Shown in pieces: positions 9,218 to 59,164 of a DNA stretch of 64,000 bases; the first letter of the stretch is position 1; each line of letters begins with the position of its first letter. The stretch lies in contig JAUVHU010000005.1 in assembly GCA_030593145.1 (NCBI GenBank), positions 1,502-65,501 of the forward strand. Direction: 5' to 3'. Made by a program: the position numbers and the translations under genes. The notes beneath the pieces were generated by a model. It had not been told where the DNA came from. It saw only the letters and a program-made list of their open reading frames with translations, and ran no database searches. Source of the stretch: Desulfobacteraceae bacterium. GTDB lineage: Bacteria; Desulfobacterota; Desulfobacteria; Desulfobacterales; ETH-SRB1.

Positions 9218-9268
9218 AGGTCAGGGATCGAGAGATCAGAGGTCGGAGGTCAGAAGTCGGAGAATCAG
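9217..9268 (+). repeat. Family B G-rich word arm (GGTCAGRGG / GGAGGTCAGAAGTCGG), single arm.
   Basis: GAGGTCAGGGATCGAGAGATCAGAGGTCGGAGGTCAGAAGTCGGAGAATCAG lies directly after the fliE stop. No complementary arm is nearby. Confidence 0.85.
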
Positions 9269-21286: not shown

Positions 21287-21967
21287 ATGGAAGAGGAATC
21301 AAGAAAGAACAAAAAAAAAGAGGCGCCGGCTGCAGGCTGGGAGGTGATATATTGTTCTCTTGTTCTGATTCTGGTGGCTTTGTTTTCAATGCTTGTGTCG
21401 TATTCAACCATCGAAGAGGAAAAAATAAAACACTTTCAACAAGAAAAGGAGTTTCTCTCGGAAAACGGTACAGGCAGTGATGCACTGGATCTCTCTCAGG
21501 ATATTCTGGGAGCTCAGGGCGGAGTTGTGATGCAGACCATGAAATCCTTAAAAATGTCTTTGGCACAGGCAGGTCTGGATGAATCGGTCAGTATAGAAAA
21601 GATTGAGAAAGGATTTAAAGTCACTTTTGGAAGCAGTGTATTGTTTTCATCAGGAAAGGCTGAAATAAATAAAGATGCCTGTTTCTGTCTTGATGAGATG
21701 ATAAAGATAGCGCGAAATAATCCTTTTTTTGTAAGGGTGGAAGGTCATACTGATAATGTTCCGATAAATACTCTCGAGTTTCCATCGAACTGGGAACTCT
21801 CAACGACACGGGCGGTCAATGTTCTGCGGTATCTCTTTGAGAAGGGAGAACTTCCCGCGGAGAGGCTGGCCGCAGTCGGGTTCAGCCAGTATCATCCGCT
21901 CGCGTCAAATGACGTTTCTGGAGGCAGACGGAGAAACCGGAGGGTTGAATTTTATTTTGAACTATAA
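21287..21967 (+). CDS. MotB-like OmpA-domain protein lacking the conserved channel aspartate.
   Basis: 226 aa. The TM region is GWEVIYCSLVLILVALFSML, with Ser where MotB has the invariant Asp. The OmpA/MotB C-terminus is EGHTDNVPINTLEFPSNWELSTTRAVNVLRYL..RRNRRVEF. Confidence 0.8.
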   Translation: MEEESRKNKKKEAPAAGWEVIYCSLVLILVALFSMLVSYSTIEEEKIKHFQQEKEFLSENGTGSDALDLSQDILGAQGGVVMQTMKSLKMSLAQAGLDESVSIEKIEKGFKVTFGSSVLFSSGKAEINKDACFCLDEMIKIARNNPFFVRVEGHTDNVPINTLEFPSNWELSTTRAVNVLRYLFEKGELPAERLAAVGFSQYHPLASNDVSGGRRRNRRVEFYFEL

Positions 21968-22072: not shown

Positions 22073-22879
22073 TTGAGCCTGACGCAGATATTGGGCAAAA
22101 GGGGACGTTTTGAAATTGGCTCTATAAAGTTGATTCTGGGGCGCCGAATGAAGAATAAGCATGAAGATCAAGAGAAAGGAGGGAAATGGCTCACAACCTT
22201 CAATGATATGGTGACACTGCTGCTTACATTCCTGGTTTTAGTTCTTTCTCTTTCAGTAATCGATAGATCTAAACTGGAACAGGCATCTTGTGCTATGAAC
22301 GCTGTATTTGATATGCCGAAAATAAAAAAAGAGGATGTGAAGATTTTTACCCCTTTTGTTGTTCCTATAAGAAGTAAAATCAGGATGTTTGAGGATAAAA
22401 AGAGCGAATTGGCCGAGCGTATAAACAAAGCAGCGGAAACGATTGCAAAAGCAACCGGAGACGGAGCTTCTGTCGGCCCTGAAGGCATAATGAATATAAA
22501 AGTAATAAAAGAGGGGGTTTCCGTTACCCTGGGGGAAAAGCTGTTATTCAAGACGGGTATGGCCGAAATTGAAGAAAAAAATCGGCCTGCCCTTAAGTCA
22601 CTCTGTTCTATTTTTCAAAAAACCGACAGCCGGATAAGGATAGAGGGACATACGGATGATGTTCCGATAAACACTCCCGAGTTTCCGTCGAACTGGGAAC
22701 TGTCAACGGCCCGAGCTGTAAATGTTGTCAAATATTTTATTTCCGAAGGCGGAATTCTCCCGGAAAGACTTTCTGCAGCAGGCTATGCAGACTCGAAACC
22801 CCTTTTCCCGAATGTGAGCGATCTCAACAGGGACATCAACAGAAGGGTGGAGGTTATTTTAGCATTAAAGAAAGAGTAA
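22073..22879 (+). CDS. motB: Flagellar stator protein MotB (canonical, Asp-containing).
   Basis: WLTTFNDMVTLLLTFLVLVLSL contains the conserved Asp. The OmpA-like C-terminus is EGHTDDVPINTPEFPSNWELSTARAVNVVKYF. TTG 22073 has a GAGGA SD 7 nt upstream. ATG 22148 is an alternative start. Confidence 0.85.
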   Translation: MSLTQILGKRGRFEIGSIKLILGRRMKNKHEDQEKGGKWLTTFNDMVTLLLTFLVLVLSLSVIDRSKLEQASCAMNAVFDMPKIKKEDVKIFTPFVVPIRSKIRMFEDKKSELAERINKAAETIAKATGDGASVGPEGIMNIKVIKEGVSVTLGEKLLFKTGMAEIEEKNRPALKSLCSIFQKTDSRIRIEGHTDDVPINTPEFPSNWELSTARAVNVVKYFISEGGILPERLSAAGYADSKPLFPNVSDLNRDINRRVEVILALKKE

Positions 22880-22997: not shown

Positions 22998-23507
22998 ATG
23001 GTAATGGTTGAAGAAGAAAAGGAAGAGGGAGAGGAAGAGGAATCTAAAGAAAAAGAACCTAAAAAAGGCAAGAAATCAATCATTAAATGGATTGTGGTGT
23101 TTTTGGGGGTAGTAATTCTCGGGGCCGCAGGTTTTGCGGGGTGGACGTATTATAAGACTCACATTTCCGGTTCAGAAAAAGCAGGCAGCGAACAGACTGT
23201 TCAGGAAACGGGCATCTGGTCCATGGGCAGCCTGGTTGTGAATTTAATGGATGCTGACGGCGAAAGGTACTTAAAGACTACGATTCAGATCGAAGTATCT
23301 AATCAGGATTGTATATCGGAGATGGAACTTTTAAAGCCAAAAATTACTGATAGTATTTTAGGCCTTCTTTCATCAAAAAGCTATAGGGAAATAGCAGGTT
23401 TTGAGGGAAAACAGCGTCTCAGAGACGAGATCGCCATGCGTCTGAACGGCTATCTTATTAAAGGTCAGGTCAGAAGGGTTTACTTTACCGAATTTCTTAT
23501 ACAATAG
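22998..23507 (+). CDS. fliL: Flagellar basal body-associated protein FliL.
   Basis: The E/K-rich N-terminus is followed by TM IIKWIVVFLGVVILGAAGFAGW and the FliL domain LVVNLMDADGERYLKTTIQIEV..LRDEIAMRLNGYL..VRRVYFTEFLIQ. ATG 22998 follows GAGGGGG. The ORF-track start 22968 lies inside the repeat. Confidence 0.85.
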   Translation: MVMVEEEKEEGEEEESKEKEPKKGKKSIIKWIVVFLGVVILGAAGFAGWTYYKTHISGSEKAGSEQTVQETGIWSMGSLVVNLMDADGERYLKTTIQIEVSNQDCISEMELLKPKITDSILGLLSSKSYREIAGFEGKQRLRDEIAMRLNGYLIKGQVRRVYFTEFLIQ

Positions 23508-25140: not shown

Positions 25141-25160
25141 TAAGTTATTTGAGGAGTGTC

Positions 25161-25571
25161 ATGAATTCACCGGAATTATTTCCATCTCTTTTAAAAATCA
25201 TATCGGCTCTTGCCGTTACGGTGGGTGTCATGATTGTTGTTGCGTATCTGTTTAAAAAAATCGTGAAAAAGGGAGGAGGAGTAATCAATGGCAGAGAATT
25301 GATAAAGATTTTGTCTGCTAAATACCTGGGGCCCAAGAGCAGTATAATGCTTATTGATGTGTTGGGCAAGATTATGGTGGTCGGCATTTCGAGCAGCAAG
25401 ATATCTCTGTTGACGGAGATTGTGGATTCTGAATCTCTTGAACAACTGAAAGATGTTCAGGGGCAGGAAGGCAAAAGTGCTTCCTTTTCTGATTGTTTGA
25501 AGGGACTGTTGAAGTCAAGTAGTTCAAAGCTTAAAGCTCAAAGCTCAAAGATTGAGGGCCAGGATGCTTAA
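25161..25571 (+). CDS. fliO: Flagellar biosynthesis protein FliO/FliZ.
   Basis: There is a single TM (LLKIISALAVTVGVMIVVAYLF) followed by a conserved segment (IKILSAKYLGPKSSIMLIDVLGKIMVVGIS). It lies between fliN and fliP. ATG 25161 follows a GAGGAG SD. Confidence 0.7.
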   Translation: MNSPELFPSLLKIISALAVTVGVMIVVAYLFKKIVKKGGGVINGRELIKILSAKYLGPKSSIMLIDVLGKIMVVGISSSKISLLTEIVDSESLEQLKDVQGQEGKSASFSDCLKGLLKSSSSKLKAQSSKIEGQDA

Positions 25572-33269: not shown

Positions 33270-33992
33270 ATGACTGATAAAAAAAAACGCGAGAAACTGA
33301 TAATTAAATATGTGCCTCTTGTTAAGAATATTGTCGGCAGGATTGCCTTGAGACTTCCCGATCATGTGGACACGGATGATCTGATCAGCGCCGGTATAAT
33401 AGGATTGATGTCGGCTCTGGAGAAATTTGACGAAACAAAGAAAGTGCGGTTTGAAACATATGCGCAGTTCAGGATCCGTGGGGCCATATTGGATGAATTA
33501 AGAGCGAGAGACGATGCGCCCAGATCGGTTAGAAGCAAAGAAACGATGCTGAAAGATACACTTGATGTGTTGCGGAAAAAGTTCGGACGTCATCCAACGG
33601 ATGAAGAAATTTCGCATTATCTTGGTATATCACTTAACAATTATTATAAATTTCTTGATGAAGCAAGGGGTGTCCGCATCCTGAGCAATGATGATTTACC
33701 ATCGAGCTACTGTGAAAAATACGGCAGGCATGATGTGTTGGAAAAAATTGATCAAAACAATCCTTTTTTCCTTCTTGCTAACAGAGAACTTAAAAATATA
33801 TTGAAGAATGCAATAGATTCACTTCCCGAAAAAGAGAAACTGGTGTTGTCTCTCTATTATTATGAGGAGTTAACATTAAAGGAAATAGGACTGACATTGA
33901 AATTGACGGAATCAAGAATTTGTCAGATCCACTCCCAGGCAATACTGAGACTAAAGGGCAGCTTGAAAAAAATCAGATATGACATTACTTAG
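33270..33992 (+). CDS. fliA: Flagellar sigma factor FliA (sigma28).
   Basis: 240 aa. Region 2 is LISAGIIGLMSALEKFDETKKVRFETYAQFRIRGAILDELR. Region 4.2 is ELTLKEIGLTLKLTESRICQIHSQAILRLK. Confidence 0.9.
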   Translation: MTDKKKREKLIIKYVPLVKNIVGRIALRLPDHVDTDDLISAGIIGLMSALEKFDETKKVRFETYAQFRIRGAILDELRARDDAPRSVRSKETMLKDTLDVLRKKFGRHPTDEEISHYLGISLNNYYKFLDEARGVRILSNDDLPSSYCEKYGRHDVLEKIDQNNPFFLLANRELKNILKNAIDSLPEKEKLVLSLYYYEELTLKEIGLTLKLTESRICQIHSQAILRLKGSLKKIRYDIT

Positions 33993-34992
33993 ACAAATTG
34001 TTGCCGGATATTATAAAAGGGTGCTGATGGCCGTATGTCTGTGTATTGTGCTGTTTGCAGTCGGCTGGTTTATCAGGGGTAATGGGTCGGGGTCATGGGT
34101 CATCAAGGGTCAGGGATCAGGGATCAGGAGTCAGGGGTCAGGGATCGGGGGGCAGAAGTCAGAAGTTGGAAGTCAGGAGTCGGAGGCCGGAAGTCAGGAG
34201 TCGGAGGCCGGAAGTCAGGGGTCGGAAGTCAGATATCAGATGTCGGAAGTCAGAGGTTGGAAGTCAGAAGTTGGAAGTCAGGAGTCGGAAGTCGGAGGTC
34301 AGGAGTCGGAAGTCGGAAGTCAGGAGTCAGAAGTTGGAAGTCAGGAGTCGGAGGTTGGAAGTCAGGGGTCGGAAGTCAGAGGTCAGGGGTCGGAAGTCGG
34401 AGGTCAGGAGTCGGAAGTCGGAGGTCAGGAGTTGGAAGTCGGAGGTCAGGAGTCGGAAGTTGGAAGTCAGAGGCCGGAAGTCAGAAGTCAGGAGTCGGAA
34501 GTCGGGGGTCAGGAATCGGAGGCCGAAGGTCAGGGGTTGGAAGTCAGATATCAGATGTCGGAAGTCAGAGGTTGGAAGTCAGAAGTTGGAAGTCAGGAGT
34601 CGGAAGTCAGAGGTCAGGAGTCGGAGGCTGGAAGTCAGAGGCCGGAGATCAGAGGTCATGAGCCAATAGGTTCTGTAAAGAAAAGTTTGCCGGTGACTGC
34701 TTCCATGGAAGAACGGTTTGAATATTTTAATGATTTTATTGTTCATTTAAAAGGTGATCGCAGGAAAGACAGAGTGCTGATTTGTGATGTGGTTATTGAA
34801 CTGAATCAAGGGATGAAACTGCCGCAAAAGAGGATTGAGTTGAGAAAGGTCATATATAATACATTGAAAAAACTTTCGGGGTTGTCTGAAATCAAAAGAG
34901 GATTAAAAGAAAAAATTAAAAGCAGCTTGAATAATTTTATGGATGATGAAATAATAAAAGATGTGTACTTTGCTAGGTTTGTTTTATTGTAA
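33979..34992 (+). CDS. FliL-family paralog with a ~195-aa acidic heptad-repeat spacer between the TM helix and the FliL-like domain.
   Basis: TM VLMAVCLCIVLFAVGWFI is followed by about 27 heptads (GSQESEV / GGQESEV ..). The C-terminus FNDFIVHLKGDRRKDRVLICDVVIEL..LRKVIYNTLKKL..LKEKIKSSLNNFM..IKDVYFARFVLL aligns by eye with the FliL at 22998. The start overlaps the fliA stop by 14 nt. Confidence 0.65.
   Translation: MTLLRQIVAGYYKRVLMAVCLCIVLFAVGWFIRGNGSGSWVIKGQGSGIRSQGSGIGGQKSEVGSQESEAGSQESEAGSQGSEVRYQMSEVRGWKSEVGSQESEVGGQESEVGSQESEVGSQESEVGSQGSEVRGQGSEVGGQESEVGGQELEVGGQESEVGSQRPEVRSQESEVGGQESEAEGQGLEVRYQMSEVRGWKSEVGSQESEVRGQESEAGSQRPEIRGHEPIGSVKKSLPVTASMEERFEYFNDFIVHLKGDRRKDRVLICDVVIELNQGMKLPQKRIELRKVIYNTLKKLSGLSEIKRGLKEKIKSSLNNFMDDEIIKDVYFARFVLL
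34074..34660 (+). repeat. Expanded family B repeat (21-nt period, higher-order ~315-bp duplication) inside the FliL paralog. It is stop-free in all three + frames.
   Basis: GGAAGTCAGGAGTCGGAAGTC-type units. The ORF track shows three overlapping + ORFs (33979, 34046, 34095). GTCAGATATCAGATGTCGGAAGTCAGAGGTTGGAAGTCAGAAGTTGGAAGTCAGGAGTCGGAAGTC occurs twice (about 34225 and about 34540). Confidence 0.95.
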
Positions 34993-35022: not shown

Positions 35023-35799
35023 ATGGATGAGGACATGAACCAAGAAGAAATTTTCAAGAAACTGGAAAAAGAATTTGAATCGACTTTTGTGGAACTTGTT
35101 TCCGGCATTATTCACGACTTCGCCAACCCCTTAAATGGGATTTTGGGTCGTTCTGAGCTTTTGGAGGCAAAGGCGGAGCACCTTAAACTTATTATAAACG
35201 ATAAAGATAATATAGATGCCGAGATCCTGGAAGGTTGCAAAAAGATAATTTATGATTCCGGCTTGATTGCAAAGGAAGCGAACAGGCTTTTTGGCCTGTT
35301 TAATGATGTGACAGGAAAATTTCAGAGTCTGAGTAACGCTGCCTTACAAAAAATCAATTTATCCGAGCTTGTAGAGGCTGAAATGAAATTCCTTCAGTTT
35401 TACCGGAATATTAAGCATGATATTAAAAAGAAACTAACATTGGACAGGGAAATCCCGGAAATATCAGGAGTAAAAGCCGATTATTCCATTTTTCTGTCGG
35501 CGATAATCAGACGTTCTGTAAATTCCATGAAAGACAGCGAATTAAAGGAGCTGGTTGTTTCCACAGGTCATGATGATTCACATGTATATGTCAAAATTGA
35601 GGATACCGGAACGCCCATTCCCGAGATCGAAATAAAAGAAATAATCGAAAATTGGAATTCATCCGACTATCCACTTCATGATTTGAATGAAGATAACAGG
35701 TTGTTATATGCGCTATTTCTCTTGAAAAAATATGGAGTTCTTTTTCAGATTACACATGAGTCGGGTTTTAATGTTATTTTGATAAAGATACCTTATTGA
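35023..35799 (+). CDS. Sensor-less histidine-kinase-like protein with a degenerate ATP-binding domain.
   Basis: The H-box is IHDFANPLNGILGRSELL. The HATPase-like region has KIEDTGTPIP (G1-like), but I see no GxGxG G2 box (LYALFLLKKYG in its place). There is no TM or sensor domain. Confidence 0.55.
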   Translation: MDEDMNQEEIFKKLEKEFESTFVELVSGIIHDFANPLNGILGRSELLEAKAEHLKLIINDKDNIDAEILEGCKKIIYDSGLIAKEANRLFGLFNDVTGKFQSLSNAALQKINLSELVEAEMKFLQFYRNIKHDIKKKLTLDREIPEISGVKADYSIFLSAIIRRSVNSMKDSELKELVVSTGHDDSHVYVKIEDTGTPIPEIEIKEIIENWNSSDYPLHDLNEDNRLLYALFLLKKYGVLFQITHESGFNVILIKIPY

Positions 35800-38300: not shown

Positions 38301-38446
38301 AATTGTGACCCCTAAACTACTCGACTACCTTTATAAAAGGGCCCGCCAAACAGGAAAAAATTTCCTATTATAAACTAAATTGCTTATCTCCTGATGCTAA
38401 TTACCTCGTCAAACAGAGCAGTTTTTGACATTCATTCCGACTTCCG

Positions 38447-38529
38447 TTCTCTGCTCCCTGCTCTTAGCTCCACGCTCTCCGCTCCCTGCTCTTAGCCCCT
38501 TGCTTTCTGCTCCACGCTCTCCGCTCCTT
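38447..38529. repeat. C-rich word arm (CTGCTCCCTGCTCTTAGCTCCACGCTCTCCGCTCC x2) abutting the flgF sigma54 promoter.
   Basis: It ends at the nucleotide before the TGGCAT at 38530. Its reverse complement words (GAGCAGGGAGCGGAGAGCG) occur in the cheA coding sequence at 57305-57392. Confidence 0.85.
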
Positions 38530-38545
38530 TGGCATACAAATTGCT
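38530..38545 (+). promoter_or_regulatory. Sigma54 promoter of the flgF-flgJ block.
   Basis: TGGCAT-ACAAA-TTGCT with exact spacing, 33 nt upstream of the flgF ATG 38578, which has a GGAGG SD. Confidence 0.7.
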
Positions 38546-38577
38546 TTACTTCACATACAGAAGAGGAGGCAGGAGAC

Positions 38578-39291
38578 ATGATTAACGGTATTGAGATATT
38601 GGCAAATGCGGCTATAAGTCAGATTAGCCGGCTTGATTGCGTTACGCACAATATTGCCAATGTTAACACTCCGGGTTTTAAGGCAGAGCGGTTCCATTTT
38701 TTAGAGGCAATCTCCGAAAAGATGGCGAAGGAAGGCAGACCTGCGCAGAGAACGGCAACAAGTGTCAATTATTCCCGTGGAATTATACAGAAAACCGGCA
38801 ATGTTCTTGATCTGGCAATAGACGGGAAGGGATTTTTTGCTATTCAGACAAAAGCCGGTGTCGCCTATACGAAAGATGGAAGGTTTACGCTCAATAAGAA
38901 CGGAGAGCTGGTTACACAGGCCGGAGATTATGTTCTTGGCAGGGGTGGAAAAATTACCATTGGGGGAAATGACATCCAGATAAGTAAAGAAGGTGTGATA
39001 AGTGTGGATGGCGATGAAGTTGATGCATTGAAGATCGAAAACTTTCGTGAACTATCTGCTCTTGTTAAGATTAATACTGGTCTCTATCGTAATCCTGATA
39101 ATTTAGCAGGAGCAAAAAAAGAAGAGAATGTATATGTTCAATCCGGATATCTTGAACTTTCCAATGTCCAGGCTATAAGAGAAATGGTCGAAATGATTAA
39201 TATACAACGCACTTTTGAATCATACCAGAAAGCGATTCAGACCATATCGGAACAGGATAGATCATCAACAACCCGCATCGGGAGACTGTAA
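38578..39291 (+). CDS. flgF: Flagellar basal-body rod protein FlgF.
   Basis: Motifs are VTHNIANVNTPGFKAER, DLAIDGKGFFAIQT, and a C-terminal EMVEMINIQRTFESYQKAIQT. The ORF-track start 38425 lies upstream of the promoter, so ATG 38578 is used. Confidence 0.85.
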   Translation: MINGIEILANAAISQISRLDCVTHNIANVNTPGFKAERFHFLEAISEKMAKEGRPAQRTATSVNYSRGIIQKTGNVLDLAIDGKGFFAIQTKAGVAYTKDGRFTLNKNGELVTQAGDYVLGRGGKITIGGNDIQISKEGVISVDGDEVDALKIENFRELSALVKINTGLYRNPDNLAGAKKEENVYVQSGYLELSNVQAIREMVEMINIQRTFESYQKAIQTISEQDRSSTTRIGRL

Positions 39292-56953: not shown

Positions 56954-59164
56954 ATGAAAGAATATGATTCTTTGATGAATTTGATTGATAGTATAGCTTC
57001 CGACTTTTTATTTTTCGATAGCAAGGAAATCGATGTGCCGGCCGCAGGTAATTTTCTTAATAAATTGGAGCAGTTAATAAAAGAAGCGGAGGCTTTAGAG
57101 GCAGATCGGTTAAAAAGGGTAGCCAGTGGATTAAGTAGTCTTCTCGAGAAGATCATTCTTGAAAGAATAGAGGATAAAGAAGCAGGATTCGGCGTCTTTG
57201 AAAAGGGTATTACCCTGATGCAGGAGATCGGTGACAGTCTTAAGAACACTGGCGGTTACGAAGGCGATATTGAAAGTTTTATGGAGTCAATTGCCGTTCT
57301 TACTGGAGAGCAGGGAGCGGAGAGCGGAGAGCAAATAGCGGAAAGCGAAGAGCAAGTAGCAGAGAGCAAAGAGCAGGGAGCGGAGAGCGACGAGATACAG
57401 GACGAGTCGCTGTTGAGGGATTTTATTGTTGAAGGTCTGGAATACATTGATGAGATTGAGGTAAATTTATTGAATCTGGAGCAGGACCCTGAGAATTTAG
57501 ATTGTGTTAATGCTATATTCAGACCGTTTCATTCCATCAAGGGGGTGGCCGGGTTTCTCAATCTAGAAGCGATTCGTGATCTTGCCCATACCCTTGAGAA
57601 CCTTCTGGATAAGGTAAGAAATAAGGAATTATTGGTGAGTTCCCGGCTTATAGATATAATTCTTGATGGATCCGATGTTCTGAAGGCGATAATTGTTAAA
57701 TTGAAAGACGATATGGAAGGCAATCCGACTGAACCTTTAGAGATTGATACATCTACCTTGAAAAAGCGGATAGAAAGTATTGAACAGGGTGCTCCGGATA
57801 CCGTTGAAGTGAAAAAACTGGGTGAAATACTGGTCGAAGACGGTGCTATAACAGAGGAGAACCTGGAGCAAGGCCTTGAAGTTGCAGAACAATCGATTCC
57901 ACCCAAGAAAATTGGGGAAGCCCTGATATCTGAAGGTAAGGTTACTCCGAAGCAGGTATCACAGGCCCTGAGAAAACAGACAAAGAAGGCCGTAGATACC
58001 GCTGTGGTAAGGGTAAATATAAAGAAGCTGGATGATTTAATCGATATGGTTGGTGAACTGGTCATTACACAGTCGATGATCAGGCAGAATTCGTTTATTC
58101 TATCAAATTCCGATATAAGGTTGAGCAGAGATGTTTCCCGTCTGTCCAGTATTACATCGGAACTCCAGAGAACCTCTACCAGCTTGAGAATGGTGCCTAT
58201 CAAGCAGACATTTCAGAGGATGTCCCGTCTTGTCAGGGATCTGTCCAGAGATGCCGGAAAGCATGTTGGTGTTGTCACGGAAGGTGAGGATACGGAGATA
58301 GACAGAAATATGGTGGAGGAGATATATAATCCGCTTGTACACATGGTACGGAATGCCGTAGATCATGGTATAGATTCTTCTGAGGAGCGTATAAAGGCCG
58401 GTAAACCTGAAAAGGGCATGGTACGGCTCAAGGCCTTTCACAGAGGAGGTAATGTTGTAATCGAAATATCGGATGACGGAAAAGGGCTGGATAGGGACGT
58501 AATACTGAAAAAGGCTGTCGAGAAAGAACTTATCGATAGTTCAGATGATCTTTCGGATCAGGATATTTATAAGCTGATTTTTTCCGCCGGTTTTTCAACT
58601 GCTGCGAAAGTAACGGATATCTCCGGGCGGGGAGTGGGGATGGATGTAGTGAAACAGGCCGTGGAAAAACTGCGGGGAAAAATAGAGATTGACAGTGTTA
58701 TTAATGAAGGTTCTACCTTTGCGCTTGGCTTTCCTCTTACCATGGCCATTATTGACGGCATGATTGTGAGGGTGGGCGGTGAAAGGTATATTATTCCTAC
58801 TACCGCTATCAGACAGTTGTTGCGTCCCAAGGAGGAATCTTATAACAATATAGTCGGCAAGGGTGAAACGATAAACGTGATGGGCAATCTTTTGCCGTTG
58901 GTAAGGTTGTATAAGATCTTCGGTATAGAGCCTGAGCATGAAAATCCCTGGGAAGCCATAGTGGTGGTGCTTGAAGGTGAAAACAGATCCAAGTGTTTGC
59001 TGGTGGATGAGATTTTAGGTGAAGAGGAAGTGGTGATCAAAAGTCTTGGTGAAAGTTTGAAAAGCAGCAAAGGAGTTTCCGGTGGTGCTATCATGGGGGA
59101 TGGTAATGTAGGATTGATATTGGACCCGGAAGGGCTGTTTGAATTGAGTGAGAGTTTAGGTTGA
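56954..59164 (+). CDS. cheA: Chemotaxis histidine kinase CheA, with a ~150-aa N-terminal extension and a repeat-encoded acidic linker.
   Basis: HPt domain ([14 protein letters not shown]), dimerisation domain, HATPase ([27 protein letters not shown]) and a CheW-like C-terminus. The linker [27 protein letters not shown] is encoded by word repeats. Confidence 0.95.
57305..57392 (+). repeat. GAGCAGGGAGCGGAGAGC-word repeat within cheA coding sequence.
   Basis: GGAGAGCAGGGAGCGGAGAGCGGAGAGCAAATAGCGGAAAGCGAAGAGCAAGTAGCAGAGAGCAAAGAGCAGGGAGCGGAGAGCGA is the reverse complement type of the arm at 38447-38529. Confidence 0.85.

What the first reader, a model, noticed from the sequence alone, without database searches (positions are those of the whole stretch)
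33979..34992. FliL paralog carrying a 585-bp repeat expansion that is open in all three forward frames and encodes about 27 acidic heptads between the TM helix and the FliL domain
The ORF joins a credible N-terminal TM helix (VLMAVCLCIVLFAVGWFI) to a C-terminal segment. That segment aligns by eye with the canonical FliL at 22998-23507 (..IVHLKGD..VLICDVVIEL..LKEKIKSSLNNFM..VYFARFVLL versus ..VVNLMDA..YLKTTIQIEV..LRDEIAMRLNGYL..VYFTEFLIQ). Between the two lies 34074-34660, a 21-nt-period array of the same GGTCAG/GGAAGTC words that form intergenic family B arms. It translates to GSQESEV-type heptads. It also contains a ~315-bp higher-order duplication, with the unit containing GTCAGATATCAGATGTCGG present twice. 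No stop occurs in any + frame, which is why the ORF track shows three overlapping ORFs. An indel of any length would therefore change the sequence but would not terminate inside the array. The gene overlaps the fliA stop by 14 nt, so it is likely co-expressed with sigma28. A FliL domain held on a ~195-residue acidic, probably disordered periplasmic tether would be structurally unusual for a stator-associated protein. The array is also an obvious candidate for length polymorphism.
Basis: partly seen in the sequence, partly recalled or inferred. Interest (0 to 1): 0.7.

Follow-up and report, generated by a model that had tools for sequence, protein, structure and literature searches.

The report
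FliL paralog with expanded heptanucleotide-repeat linker
A second FliL-type flagellar motor gene, just downstream of the flagellar sigma factor gene, has had a 7-base DNA repeat in its linker region grow to 84 copies, giving a roughly 200-residue acidic floppy spacer where relatives have 18-53 residues; it is a real and unusual variant of a known protein, not a new kind of system.

Summary
ORF 33979-34992 (337 aa) overlaps the fliA stop by 14 nt. It encodes an N-terminal hydrophobic helix, a repeat-encoded linker and a C-terminal FliL domain. That domain scores 34.7 bits against Pfam PF03748 (cut-off 24.6), and its AlphaFold2 model best matches the H. pylori, C. jejuni and Vibrio FliL structures.

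The repeat's basic unit is 7 nt (RGRRGTY, consensus GGAAGTC), not 21 nt. There are 84 units without indels, overlaid by 21/105/315-nt periodicity. The same heptamer family forms short intergenic arrays elsewhere in the window.

Orthologs from Desulfobacterales metagenomes sit in the same place (flhA-flhF-flhG-fliA-X-kinase-like gene). They carry the same array at the same site but with only 2-20 units, and the cleanest arrays differ in steps of 21 nt. The domain after the array is under purifying selection (dN/dS 0.17-0.33).

Short-read contigs of the same organism break at both array edges, so the array is real but its exact length has no independent confirmation.

Openness in all three frames is a by-product: the closest relative has stops in an alternative frame. 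I read this as an in-frame expansion of a simple-sequence repeat in a tolerant, disordered periplasmic linker. It is a new variant of a known kind, of moderate interest.

The parts
33270..33992 (+). fliA (sigma-28 type sigma factor). Its stop codon overlaps the start of the FliL paralog by 14 nt.
   Evidence: Pfam Sigma70_r2, r3 and r4. The same overlap is seen in orthologous loci L004 and L019.
33979..34992 (+). Complete FliL-paralog ORF, 337 aa.
   Evidence: ORF list. The N-terminus MTLL..YYK..CLC is conserved in orthologs. Synteny flhA-flhF-flhG-fliA-X-HK-like is conserved.
33979..34074 (+). N-terminal segment: a short basic cytoplasmic head (R5, K13, R14) and the hydrophobic helix VLMAVCLCIVLFAVGWFI. 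It may be a signal-anchor or a cleavable signal; this is unresolved.
   Evidence: AlphaFold2 helix at residues 2-32. C20 and C22 are invariant in 24 sequences.
34077..34153 (+). 5' sub-array of 11 G-tract heptamers (GGGTCAN / AGGGATC type). It contains a canonical G-quadruplex motif at 34076-34122.
   Evidence: Heptamer table. TRF periods 7/14/28. G-quadruplex regex scan.
34154..34657 (+). Main sub-array of 72 heptamers, RGRRGTY (GGAAGTC x25, AGGAGTC x12), organised in 21-nt triplets that encode G-[SG]-Q-[EGK]-S-E-V heptads.
34224..34293 (+). First copy of the 70-nt perfect internal duplicate. The second copy is at 34539-34608, offset 315 nt.
34539..34608 (+). Second copy of the 70-nt perfect internal duplicate.
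34658..34716 (+). Non-repeat part of the linker (EPIGSVKKSLPVTASMEER), shared with orthologs L001, L006 and L035.
34717..34989 (+). FliL (SPFH-like) periplasmic domain, residues 247-337, with beta-beta-alpha-alpha-beta topology.
   Evidence: Pfam PF03748 match at residues 251-335. AlphaFold2 pLDDT 85-89. Foldseek 7sgn, 9hmf and 6ahq. dN/dS 0.17-0.33.
34046..34669 (+). Alternative-frame ORF through the array (207 aa, basic RSRKSEV-type heptads). A by-product of the stop-free heptamer composition.
34095..34661 (+). Second alternative-frame ORF through the array (188 aa). A by-product.
22998..23507 (+). Canonical fliL of the same genome, located next to motB-like and fliM genes. It serves as the reference for calling 33979-34992 a paralog.
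   Evidence: Pfam FliL 82.9 bits; NCBIfam PRK08455 109 bits. Neighbouring genes.
35023..35799 (+). Conserved downstream neighbour, a weak HisKA/HATPase-like protein.
   Evidence: Conserved in L001-L004, L019, L035 and L015.

Best explanation
This is a genuine, translated gene for a second FliL-family protein, conserved immediately downstream of fliA in a clade of Desulfobacterales.

In this clade the segment between the N-terminal hydrophobic helix and the periplasmic FliL domain is encoded by a heptanucleotide simple-sequence repeat (RGRRGTY). The repeat belongs to the same family as short intergenic arrays scattered through the genome.

Because 7 is not a multiple of 3, only gains or losses of three heptamers (21 nt) or multiples keep the FliL domain in frame. 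The array has therefore evolved as 21-nt units that encode G-S-Q-x-S-E-V heptads. In this lineage, slippage or unequal recombination on 21-, 105- and 315-nt registers inflated it to 84 heptamers. The result is a roughly 200-residue, strongly acidic, intrinsically disordered spacer.

The expansion is tolerated because the segment is a flexible linker, not a folded part. The protein most likely still works as a membrane-proximal, FliL-type accessory of the flagellar motor, expressed and probably translationally coupled with sigma-28.

Shown: gene structure, domain identity, repeat anatomy, orthology and synteny, length variation, purifying selection.
Inferred: mutational mechanism, tolerance of the linker, motor association, topology.
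For: FliL identity:
- Pfam PF03748 scores 31.3 and 34.7 bits against a cut-off of 24.6.
- An ortholog profile hits PDB FliL 7sgn (E 3.3e-6) and 9hmf.
- The AlphaFold2 domain has pLDDT 85-89. Foldseek top hits are H. pylori FliL 7sgn (target-normalised TM-score 0.69-0.74), C. jejuni 9hmf and Vibrio 6ahq, followed by stomatin/HflK SPFH domains.

Orthology and context:
- 35 homologs at E <= 1e-22, all 95-190 aa, named FliL family wherever a source names the function.
- The flhA-flhF-flhG-fliA-X-HK-like order recurs in six independent loci and in a Syntrophales relative.

The array is ancestral and variable:
- The same heptamers sit at the same site with 6-20 units in L009, L007, L010, L012, L019, L004 and L020. 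The coding stretches there are 96, 96, 138, 138, 159 and 159 nt, i.e. steps of 21 nt.
- Linkers are 18-53 aa in orthologs against 214-216 aa here.
- The closest relatives differ strongly. L004 (fliA 93.8% nt identity) has about 19 units. L035 (96.5%) has at least 37 units plus an unbridged scaffold gap.

In-frame registers are favoured:
- The longest perfect self-match is 12 nt at periods 7, 14 and 28. It is 31 nt at period 21, 27 at 42, 28 at 63, 34 at 105 and 70 at 315.

Selection on the downstream domain:
- dN/dS is 0.17-0.33 against six orthologs.
- dN/dS is 0.28 against L035, which also carries a long array.

The array is real:
- Two contigs from an independent short-read assembly (SRR18936876) are 100% identical to the window. 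They end at 34197 and start at 34579, inside the array.

Other support:
- The linker is predicted to be disordered (pLDDT below 50, residues 35-243).
- There is no RNA-family hit and no unusual RNA fold (z -0.97).
- The same heptamer family occurs in seven short arrays elsewhere in the window, between the long ORFs.
Against: - There is no expression or proteomic evidence for this gene in this organism.
- The exact array length (588 nt) has no independent confirmation. Short reads cannot bridge it, and a mis-assembly in 21-nt steps would still look in frame.
- The homolog set comes almost entirely from short-read metagenomes. These censor long arrays (L022 starts inside an array, L035 has an N gap). 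The window may therefore be less of an outlier than it looks.
- Pairwise dN/dS cannot isolate the window's own branch, so recent loss of function is not excluded.
- In Vibrio FliL the length of the 17-residue linker matters for localisation (PMC6426602). A 12-fold longer linker could therefore impair a canonical FliL-type role.
- The hydrophobic core is only 13-18 residues in the family. A Syntrophales relative has a lipobox-like IAGC. The segment might therefore be a cleaved signal, not an anchor.
Confidence: 0.72

Rival explanations
1. Phase-variable contingency locus. Slippage by single heptamers (+/-7 nt) switches the FliL domain off and on. The OFF states still produce membrane-targeted proteins with basic repeat tails, because all three frames are open through the array.
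For: - The unit length of 7 is not a multiple of 3 and lies inside an ORF.
- No + strand stop occurs over 34105-34650. Heptamer-order shuffles leave all three frames open in only 0.035% of trials. All 12 T-ending heptamers are followed by G, so no T|AG junction is created.
- Both alternative frames stop within 12 nt after the array.
Against: - The units are degenerate. The longest perfect period-7 tract is 19 nt (2.7 copies). Tracts in 21-nt registers are far longer. Known phase-variable repeats are long perfect tracts (own knowledge).
- The clean ortholog arrays differ in multiples of 21 nt.
- The nearest relative L035 has 2 stops in an alternative frame, and L004, L019 and L009 have one each. 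Keeping all frames open is therefore not conserved.
- The stop-free state can arise from recent amplification of a few stop-free 21-105-nt units, so the junctions are not independent events.
Confidence: 0.07
2. A decaying or functionally neutral gene. The paralog is dispensable in this lineage, and the array is a runaway neutral expansion on its way to pseudogenisation.
For: - dN/dS of the domain (0.28-0.30 against L035 and L004) is higher than that of fliA (0.12).
- Orthologs tolerate other insertions inside the domain.
- The linker is 4-12 times longer than in any assembled relative.
Against: - The frame is intact over 588 nt of repeat.
- dN/dS is well below 1, with 14 non-synonymous and 11 synonymous differences where neutrality predicts a ratio of about 4.2 to 1.
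- All family-invariant residues are retained.
- The 14-nt overlap with fliA and the synteny are conserved.
Confidence: 0.12
3. Assembly artefact in length. The array exists, but its 84-unit length or internal order was produced by the assembler.
For: - Independent short-read contigs stop at 34197 and 34579.
- L035 has a 100-N gap in its array.
- No second assembly spans the array (one search found no identical protein on record).
Against: - Both array edges and flanks are reproduced exactly.
- The interior has structured, non-trivial variation rather than collapsed identical units.
- Failure of short reads to bridge it itself implies an array longer than the read or insert scale.
- A close relative also has an unbridgeable array.
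Confidence: 0.09

Closest known systems
Canonical FliL (Pfam PF03748; structures 7SGN H. pylori, 6AHQ Vibrio alginolyticus, 9HMF C. jejuni)
   Same: - One N-terminal hydrophobic helix followed by a periplasmic SPFH-like domain.
- Pfam score above the cut-off, and the best structural matches are FliL chains.
- Encoded within a flagellar gene cluster.
   Different: - It is not an equivalog of canonical FliL. The NCBIfam FliL models score 26.5 bits against cut-offs of 131-218. Pairwise BLASTP to the genome's own FliL is not significant.
- It is located after fliA, not next to motAB and fliM.
- The linker is about 214 aa. In Vibrio FliL it is about 17 aa (PMC6426602).
MotF, the FliL paralog of Sinorhizobium meliloti (PMC9541039)
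   Same: A divergent second FliL-fold protein that coexists with the canonical FliL. It is recognisable mainly by profile or structure.
   Different: - No sequence relationship beyond the shared fold was shown here.
- MotF has only a 7-residue disordered stretch (aa 26-32) and a short helix between its N-terminal helix and the domain, and no repeat array.
- A MotF-like function (plug release) was not tested here.
Heptanucleotide simple-sequence repeats of bacteria: GGGNATC in Xanthomonas and Nostoc (PMC4692102), cyanobacterial STRR repeats, TAACTGA in Beggiatoaceae (PMC4679880)
   Same: - Tandem 7-nt units in many short arrays, mostly between co-oriented genes. G-tract variants could form G-quadruplexes (papers read).
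- The 5' sub-array (AGGGATC, AGGGGTC) resembles the GGGNATC type.
   Different: [quoted passage not shown] This one has 84 units.
- It lies inside an ORF and is maintained in frame as triplets of heptamers across a clade.
In-frame tandem-repeat (VNTR) spacers of bacterial envelope proteins, e.g. the Ser-Asp repeat stalks of staphylococcal Clf/Sdr adhesins (own knowledge)
   Same: A low-complexity, disordered spacer encoded by DNA repeats. Its length varies between strains and it sits between an anchor and a functional domain.
   Different: - Those repeats have units that are multiples of 3 nt and occur in surface-exposed adhesins.
- Here the unit is 7 nt, and the protein is a periplasmic flagellar-motor accessory.

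Membership tests
FliL family (PF03748) | Score above the Pfam gathering threshold | tested here: met
   31.3 bits for the full protein and 34.7 bits for the C-terminal 111 aa, against a cut-off of 24.6. The match covers profile positions 6-101 of 103.
FliL family (PF03748) | SPFH/stomatin-like periplasmic fold as in solved FliL structures | tested here: met
   AlphaFold2 residues 247-336 have pLDDT 85-89. Foldseek ranks 1-11 are FliL chains (7sgn E 7.6e-6, target-normalised TM-score 0.69-0.74; 9hmf; 6ahq). Stomatin and HflK/C follow.
FliL family (PF03748) | Single N-terminal transmembrane anchor with the C-terminus in the periplasm | tested here: inconclusive
   A helix at residues 2-32 with an 18-residue hydrophobic core and a basic N-terminal side. 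In orthologs the core is only 13-18 residues. No signal-peptide or lipoprotein predictor was available, and a distant relative has a lipobox-like IAGC.
FliL family (PF03748) | Encoded among flagellar genes | tested here: met
   flhA, flhF, flhG and fliA lie upstream. Rod genes and a flhB-like gene lie downstream.
FliL family (PF03748) | Forms rings around, or interacts with, MotA/MotB stator units | not testable with these tools
   Needs cryo-electron tomography, pull-downs or genetics.
Canonical FliL equivalogs (NCBIfam PRK08455, PRK07021, PRK07718, PRK06654) | Score above the equivalog cut-off | tested here: not met
   The best score is 26.5-27 bits against a cut-off of 187. The genome's canonical FliL scores 109 bits, also below the cut-off. 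The gene is best treated as a divergent paralog.
Phase-variable (contingency) SSR locus | Repeat unit not a multiple of 3, located inside the ORF | tested here: met
   7-nt unit, 84 copies.
Phase-variable (contingency) SSR locus | Long tract of identical units that favours single-unit slippage | tested here: not met
   The longest perfect period-7 tract is 19 nt (2.7 copies). Column identity is 75%.
Phase-variable (contingency) SSR locus | Alleles that differ by non-3n numbers of bases (ON/OFF) | tested here: not met
   All complete orthologs are in frame, and clean arrays differ by 21 nt or multiples. The sample is limited and there are no population data for this species.
Intergenic heptanucleotide SSR families (GGGNATC / STRR-like) | Tandem 7-nt units of a shared consensus, dispersed through the genome | tested here: met
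   The window outside this gene holds about 23 short period-7 arrays, against 0 in shuffled sequence. Seven of them belong to the RGRRGTC family.
Intergenic heptanucleotide SSR families (GGGNATC / STRR-like) | Located in non-coding DNA, with short arrays (2-26 units) | tested here: not met
   This array is inside a conserved ORF and has 84 units. The published range is 2-26 units (PMC4692102).

The most novel reading that the evidence does not exclude
The heptanucleotide array is not merely tolerated but acts as an evolvability device for the flagellar motor.

In-frame 21-nt steps would tune the length and charge of an acidic periplasmic tether. That would set how far a FliL-type ring subunit can reach from the membrane. 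Occasional 7-nt slips would switch the domain off and leave a membrane-targeted repeat protein. Together these would give population heterogeneity in motor behaviour in an uncultured sulfate reducer.

The G-quadruplex motif at the array's 5' end and the 22 Shine-Dalgarno-like pentamers inside it could add control of translation rate or of frame.
Probability: 0.08. Interest if true: 0.7.

Novelty: new variant of a known kind. Interest (0 to 1): 0.4.

Why it matters
FliL linker length is known to matter for assembly with the stator in Vibrio: shortening the linker abolishes localisation. Here a natural series of FliL-paralog alleles spans 18 to about 214 linker residues among close relatives (fliA 90-96.5% nt identity in the four loci compared). 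The whole series is generated by a single repeat. That makes it a ready-made length series for asking how much positional freedom a FliL-type domain can have.

It is also a clean example of how a repeat whose unit is not a multiple of three can live inside a gene. Selection filters the slippage products, so the 7-nt repeat evolves as a 21-nt, seven-residue unit.

There is a practical lesson too. Such arrays break short-read assemblies, so long alleles are systematically missing from metagenome protein catalogues.

Tried and rejected
- Exact-protein look-up of the 337-aa product found nothing on record. Neighbour look-ups showed why: short-read contigs break in the array.
- Pairwise BLASTP of the C-terminal domain against the canonical FliL was not significant.
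- Selection to keep all three frames open looked plausible from shuffles. I rejected it because relatives, including the closest one, carry stops in alternative frames, and because the junctions are not independent after recent amplification.
- An RNA-level function found no support: no Rfam match (best E 0.73) and a fold z-score of -0.97.
- The sigma-70 promoter and terminator scan between fliA and the gene gave counts no higher than in shuffled sequence. No sigma-28 promoter scan was available.
- An internal start after the array (Met at 34705-34707) with the array as intergenic DNA was rejected. The hydrophobic N-terminus is conserved and stays in frame with the domain in about 18 distinct ortholog sequences. 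A domain without it would lack any export signal.
- Genome and metagenome scans for the same species returned no second full-length copy. The best matches were 77% identical in metagenome contigs and 73% in genome contigs.
- Literature searches found nothing on heptanucleotide repeats in Desulfobacterales or on repeat-encoded FliL linkers.
Full report
**1. What is in the sequence**

The ORF 33979-34992 (+, 337 aa, ATG) exists as described. It overlaps the stop of the upstream gene by 14 nt. That upstream gene is a sigma-28-type fliA with sigma-70 regions 2, 3 and 4. It is preceded by flhG (ParA/MinD type), flhF (SRP54 type) and flhA (FHIPEP).

Two further + strand ORFs, 34046-34669 and 34095-34661, run through the same stretch in the other two frames. 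Tandem Repeats Finder reports an array at 34153-34638 with period 21 (23.1 copies, 80% matches). It also scores as period 105. A 5' portion at 34072-34162 has periods 7/14/28.

**2. Anatomy of the repeat**

The elementary unit is 7 nt, not 21.
- Cutting 34077-34664 into heptamers in one register gives 84 units with no indel and 75% column identity.
- The consensus is GGAAGTC (25 exact copies), followed by AGGAGTC (12 copies).
- The first 11 units are G-tract variants such as AGGGATC and AGGGGTC. The remaining 72 fit RGRRGTY.

On top of this lies a 21-nt superstructure.
- Self-identity is 0.76-0.85 at most offsets that are multiples of 21 (up to 315 nt). It is 0.65-0.73 at other multiples of 7.
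- The longest perfect self-matches are 31 nt at period 21, 27 at 42, 28 at 63, 34 at 105 and 70 at 315. They are only 12 nt at periods 7, 14 and 28.

In the ORF frame, each triplet of heptamers reads G-[SG]-Q-[EGK]-S-E-V. The linker (residues 33-227) has 38 Glu, no Asp, 12 Arg and 4 Lys. Its net charge is -22 and its pI is 4.36. The C-terminal domain has pI 9.5.

**3. The repeat family is genome-wide, but elsewhere short and almost always non-coding**

A period-7 scan finds about 23 short arrays (5-8 units) elsewhere in the window, against none in shuffled sequence. Nearly all lie between ORFs. Seven belong to the same RGRRGTC family, at 9231, 12599 (minus strand), 14567, 16285, 32139, 43300 and 45693. 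The array in this gene is roughly ten times longer than any other. Apart from a GGAGAGC array ahead of the Hpt domain of cheA, and a short array at the 3' end of ORF 25149-25571, it is the only one well inside a long ORF.

**4. The protein is a FliL-family paralog**

- The C-terminal 111 aa score 34.7 bits on Pfam FliL (cut-off 24.6), covering profile positions 6-101 of 103.
- A profile of the orthologs hits the solved FliL chains 7sgn (E 3.3e-6) and 9hmf.
- AlphaFold2 with the ortholog alignment gives a helix at residues 2-32. Residues 35-243 have pLDDT below 50. A confident beta-beta-alpha-alpha-beta domain covers 247-336 at pLDDT 85-89.
- The top 11 Foldseek matches to that model are FliL periplasmic domains from H. 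pylori, C. jejuni and Vibrio, with target-normalised TM-scores up to 0.74. Stomatin and HflK/C SPFH domains follow.

It is not the canonical FliL. That gene is at 22998-23507, next to motB-like and fliM genes, and scores 82.9 bits on Pfam. The two proteins are not significantly similar in pairwise BLASTP (E 0.28). The NCBIfam FliL equivalog models score only about 27 bits against the paralog.

**5. Orthologs**

A search of the 5.8-billion-protein collection with the C-terminal domain returned 35 relatives at E <= 1e-22.
- All are 95-190 aa.
- They come from Desulfobacterales, 'Deltaproteobacteria' and Thermodesulfobacteriota metagenome-assembled genomes.
- They are named FliL family wherever a source names the function.
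- One named relative is Desulfobacteraceae bacterium Eth-SRB1.

The gene order flhA-flhF-flhG-fliA-X-(kinase-like)-(100 aa)-DUF2802 is conserved. A 40%-identical Syntrophales relative keeps the fliA-X-kinase-like arrangement but has no repeat.

In the alignment the N-terminus (MTLL..GYYKK..CLC..LFA) and the domain are conserved. The orthologs carry short versions of the same heptads at exactly the site of the window's array.

At the DNA level these are the same heptamers, with 6-20 units. The clean cases have coding stretches of 96, 96, 138, 138, 159 and 159 nt, which is a series in steps of 21 nt. Linker lengths are 18-53 aa in orthologs against 214-216 aa here.

In the exhaustive search of 1.84 billion representatives, no relative has its FliL domain starting later than residue 184. 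That one (P0107) has a different repeat ahead of its hydrophobic segment. The domain starts at residue 247 here.

**6. Is the array real, and is the window really an outlier?**

An independent short-read assembly (SRR18936876) contains two contigs that are 100% identical to the window. One ends at 34197 and the other starts at 34579, both inside the array. The array and both its junctions are therefore real, but its full length is not independently verified.

Long arrays are censored in short-read data.
- The closest relative, L035 (fliA 96.5% nt identity), has at least 37 units interrupted by a 100-N scaffold gap.
- Contig L022 starts inside an array.
- L004 (fliA 93.8% identity) has about 19 units.

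Strong length variation between close relatives is thus shown. The claim that 84 units is the maximum is not.

**7. Evidence that the ORF is read through the array**

- All complete orthologs keep the N-terminal helix, the array and the domain in one frame.
- Clean arrays differ by multiples of 21 nt.
- The same heptad frame (..Q.SEV) is used throughout.
- The domain downstream of the array has dN/dS of 0.17-0.33 against six orthologs. Against L035, which also carries a long array, it is 0.28, with 14 non-synonymous and 11 synonymous differences where neutrality predicts about 4.2 to 1. For comparison, fliA gives 0.12 and the downstream kinase-like gene 0.21.

**8. 'Open in all three frames'**

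This is true over 34084-34658. Heptamer-order shuffles rarely reproduce it: all three frames stay open in 0.035% of trials. The reason is that all 12 T-ending heptamers are followed by G, which avoids T|AG junctions.

I do not read this as selection, for three reasons.
- The junctions are not independent after recent amplification of 21-315-nt blocks.
- L035 has 2 stops in an alternative frame within 211 nt.
- L004, L019 and L009 each have one such stop.

Both alternative frames terminate within 12 nt after the array. Any indel that is not a multiple of 3 would therefore remove the FliL domain.

**9. Mechanism proposed**

A heptanucleotide simple-sequence repeat of the genome's RGRRGTC family has occupied the linker-coding segment of this gene since before the Desulfobacterales subclade diversified. 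Replication slippage or unequal recombination changes its length. Selection for the downstream domain passes only 21-nt multiples. The array thereby acquires 21-nt periodicity, and the long perfect matches in 21-nt registers favour further in-frame changes (inference).

In the window's lineage the Glu-encoding variant AGGAGTC was amplified, which produced a strongly acidic spacer of about 200 residues.

For a disordered chain of about 214 residues, the scaling Rg = 0.254*N^0.522 nm (own knowledge, Bernado and Blackledge 2009) gives Rg of about 4 nm and an end-to-end distance near 10 nm. The domain would then be only loosely confined near the membrane. In Vibrio FliL the 17-residue linker is needed for localisation, and its length rather than its sequence matters (PMC6426602). 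Lengthening has not been tested there. A second FliL-fold protein that cooperates with FliL in one motor has a precedent in S. meliloti MotF (PMC9541039).

**10. Open points**

- The N-terminal segment could be a signal-anchor, a lipoprotein signal or a cleaved signal. The invariant Cys20 and Cys22 argue for a retained helix. The short hydrophobic core, and a lipobox-like IAGC in a distant relative, leave doubt.
- The exact array length is unconfirmed.
- Expression is untested.
- Whether the paralog sits in the motor is unknown.

**11. Verdict**

This is a new variant of a known kind: a FliL-family paralog whose linker is encoded by a hyper-expanded, in-frame heptanucleotide repeat. Interest is moderate. 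It offers a neat natural series of linker lengths and a clear case of 7-nt repeat evolution under a reading-frame constraint. It shows no evidence of a new mechanism.

Noticed in passing
window 57304-57398 (inside ORF 56954-59164): The cheA-like ORF (Hpt, dimerisation, HATPase and CheW domains) carries about 13 GGAGAGC-type heptamers. They correspond to residues 117-148, just before the Hpt domain that starts at residue 153. Either this is a second in-frame heptamer array in an N-terminal extension, or the true start is downstream and the array is a 5' leader.
   Followed up: partly
window 38448-38529 (inside ORF 38425-39291): A 14/28-nt array (TCTCAGCTCCACGC type) lies in the first 35 codons of a FlgF/G-like rod ORF. 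The rod domain of that ORF begins at residue 57, so the annotated TTG start is probably too far upstream and the array is likely non-coding.
   Followed up: partly
window-wide, e.g. 7750, 13965, 17370, 38249 (GAACATC/GATGTTC family); 26797 (TAAGGGAT x5); 22909 (TAGTCGAG x4.4); 17195 (AGGCACAG x5.4); 61560 (AGTGTTA): About 23 short tandem arrays of 7-nt units (plus perfect 8-nt arrays) sit almost exclusively between co-oriented flagellar and chemotaxis genes, against none in shuffled sequence. There are several distinct unit families. They resemble cyanobacterial STRR, Xanthomonas GGGNATC and Beggiatoaceae TAACTGA repeats. I found no report of such repeats in Desulfobacterales.
   Followed up: partly
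window 34076-34122; also 14568, 26800, 41616, 43300: All five canonical G-quadruplex motifs (G3+ N1-7, at least four tracts) on the + strand fall inside heptamer or octamer arrays. One covers the first 47 nt of the FliL-paralog array on the sense (mRNA) strand.
   Followed up: no
window 34077-34664: The array contains 22 Shine-Dalgarno-like pentamers (13 AGGAG, 9 GGAGG). That is 37 per kb, against 3.4 per kb for the whole window. It is a consequence of the Glu and Gly codons, but could affect ribosome pausing or frame maintenance.
   Followed up: no
orthologs P0005, P0016, P0022, P0026, P0032 and P0009, P0018, P0019, P0032, P0037 (alignment A1): Some orthologs carry other insertions inside the FliL domain. 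One is an 11-residue KPVCRDEHGTG-type insert in the first beta hairpin. Another is a 20-40-residue LLKIPPSPLYQRGVRGDFHP-type insert between the helices, which looks like a translated palindromic repeat element. This gene family seems unusually tolerant of repeat insertions.
   Followed up: no
window 21287-21967 and 22073-22879: Two OmpA-domain MotB-like genes lie in tandem upstream of the canonical fliL. Only the second has the MotB plug domain.
   Followed up: no
L015 2701-3327 (Syntrophales MAG): The distant ortholog after fliA has a lipobox-like IAGC at the end of its hydrophobic segment and no heptad array. This hints that some family members may be lipoproteins, not transmembrane-anchored proteins.
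   Followed up: no
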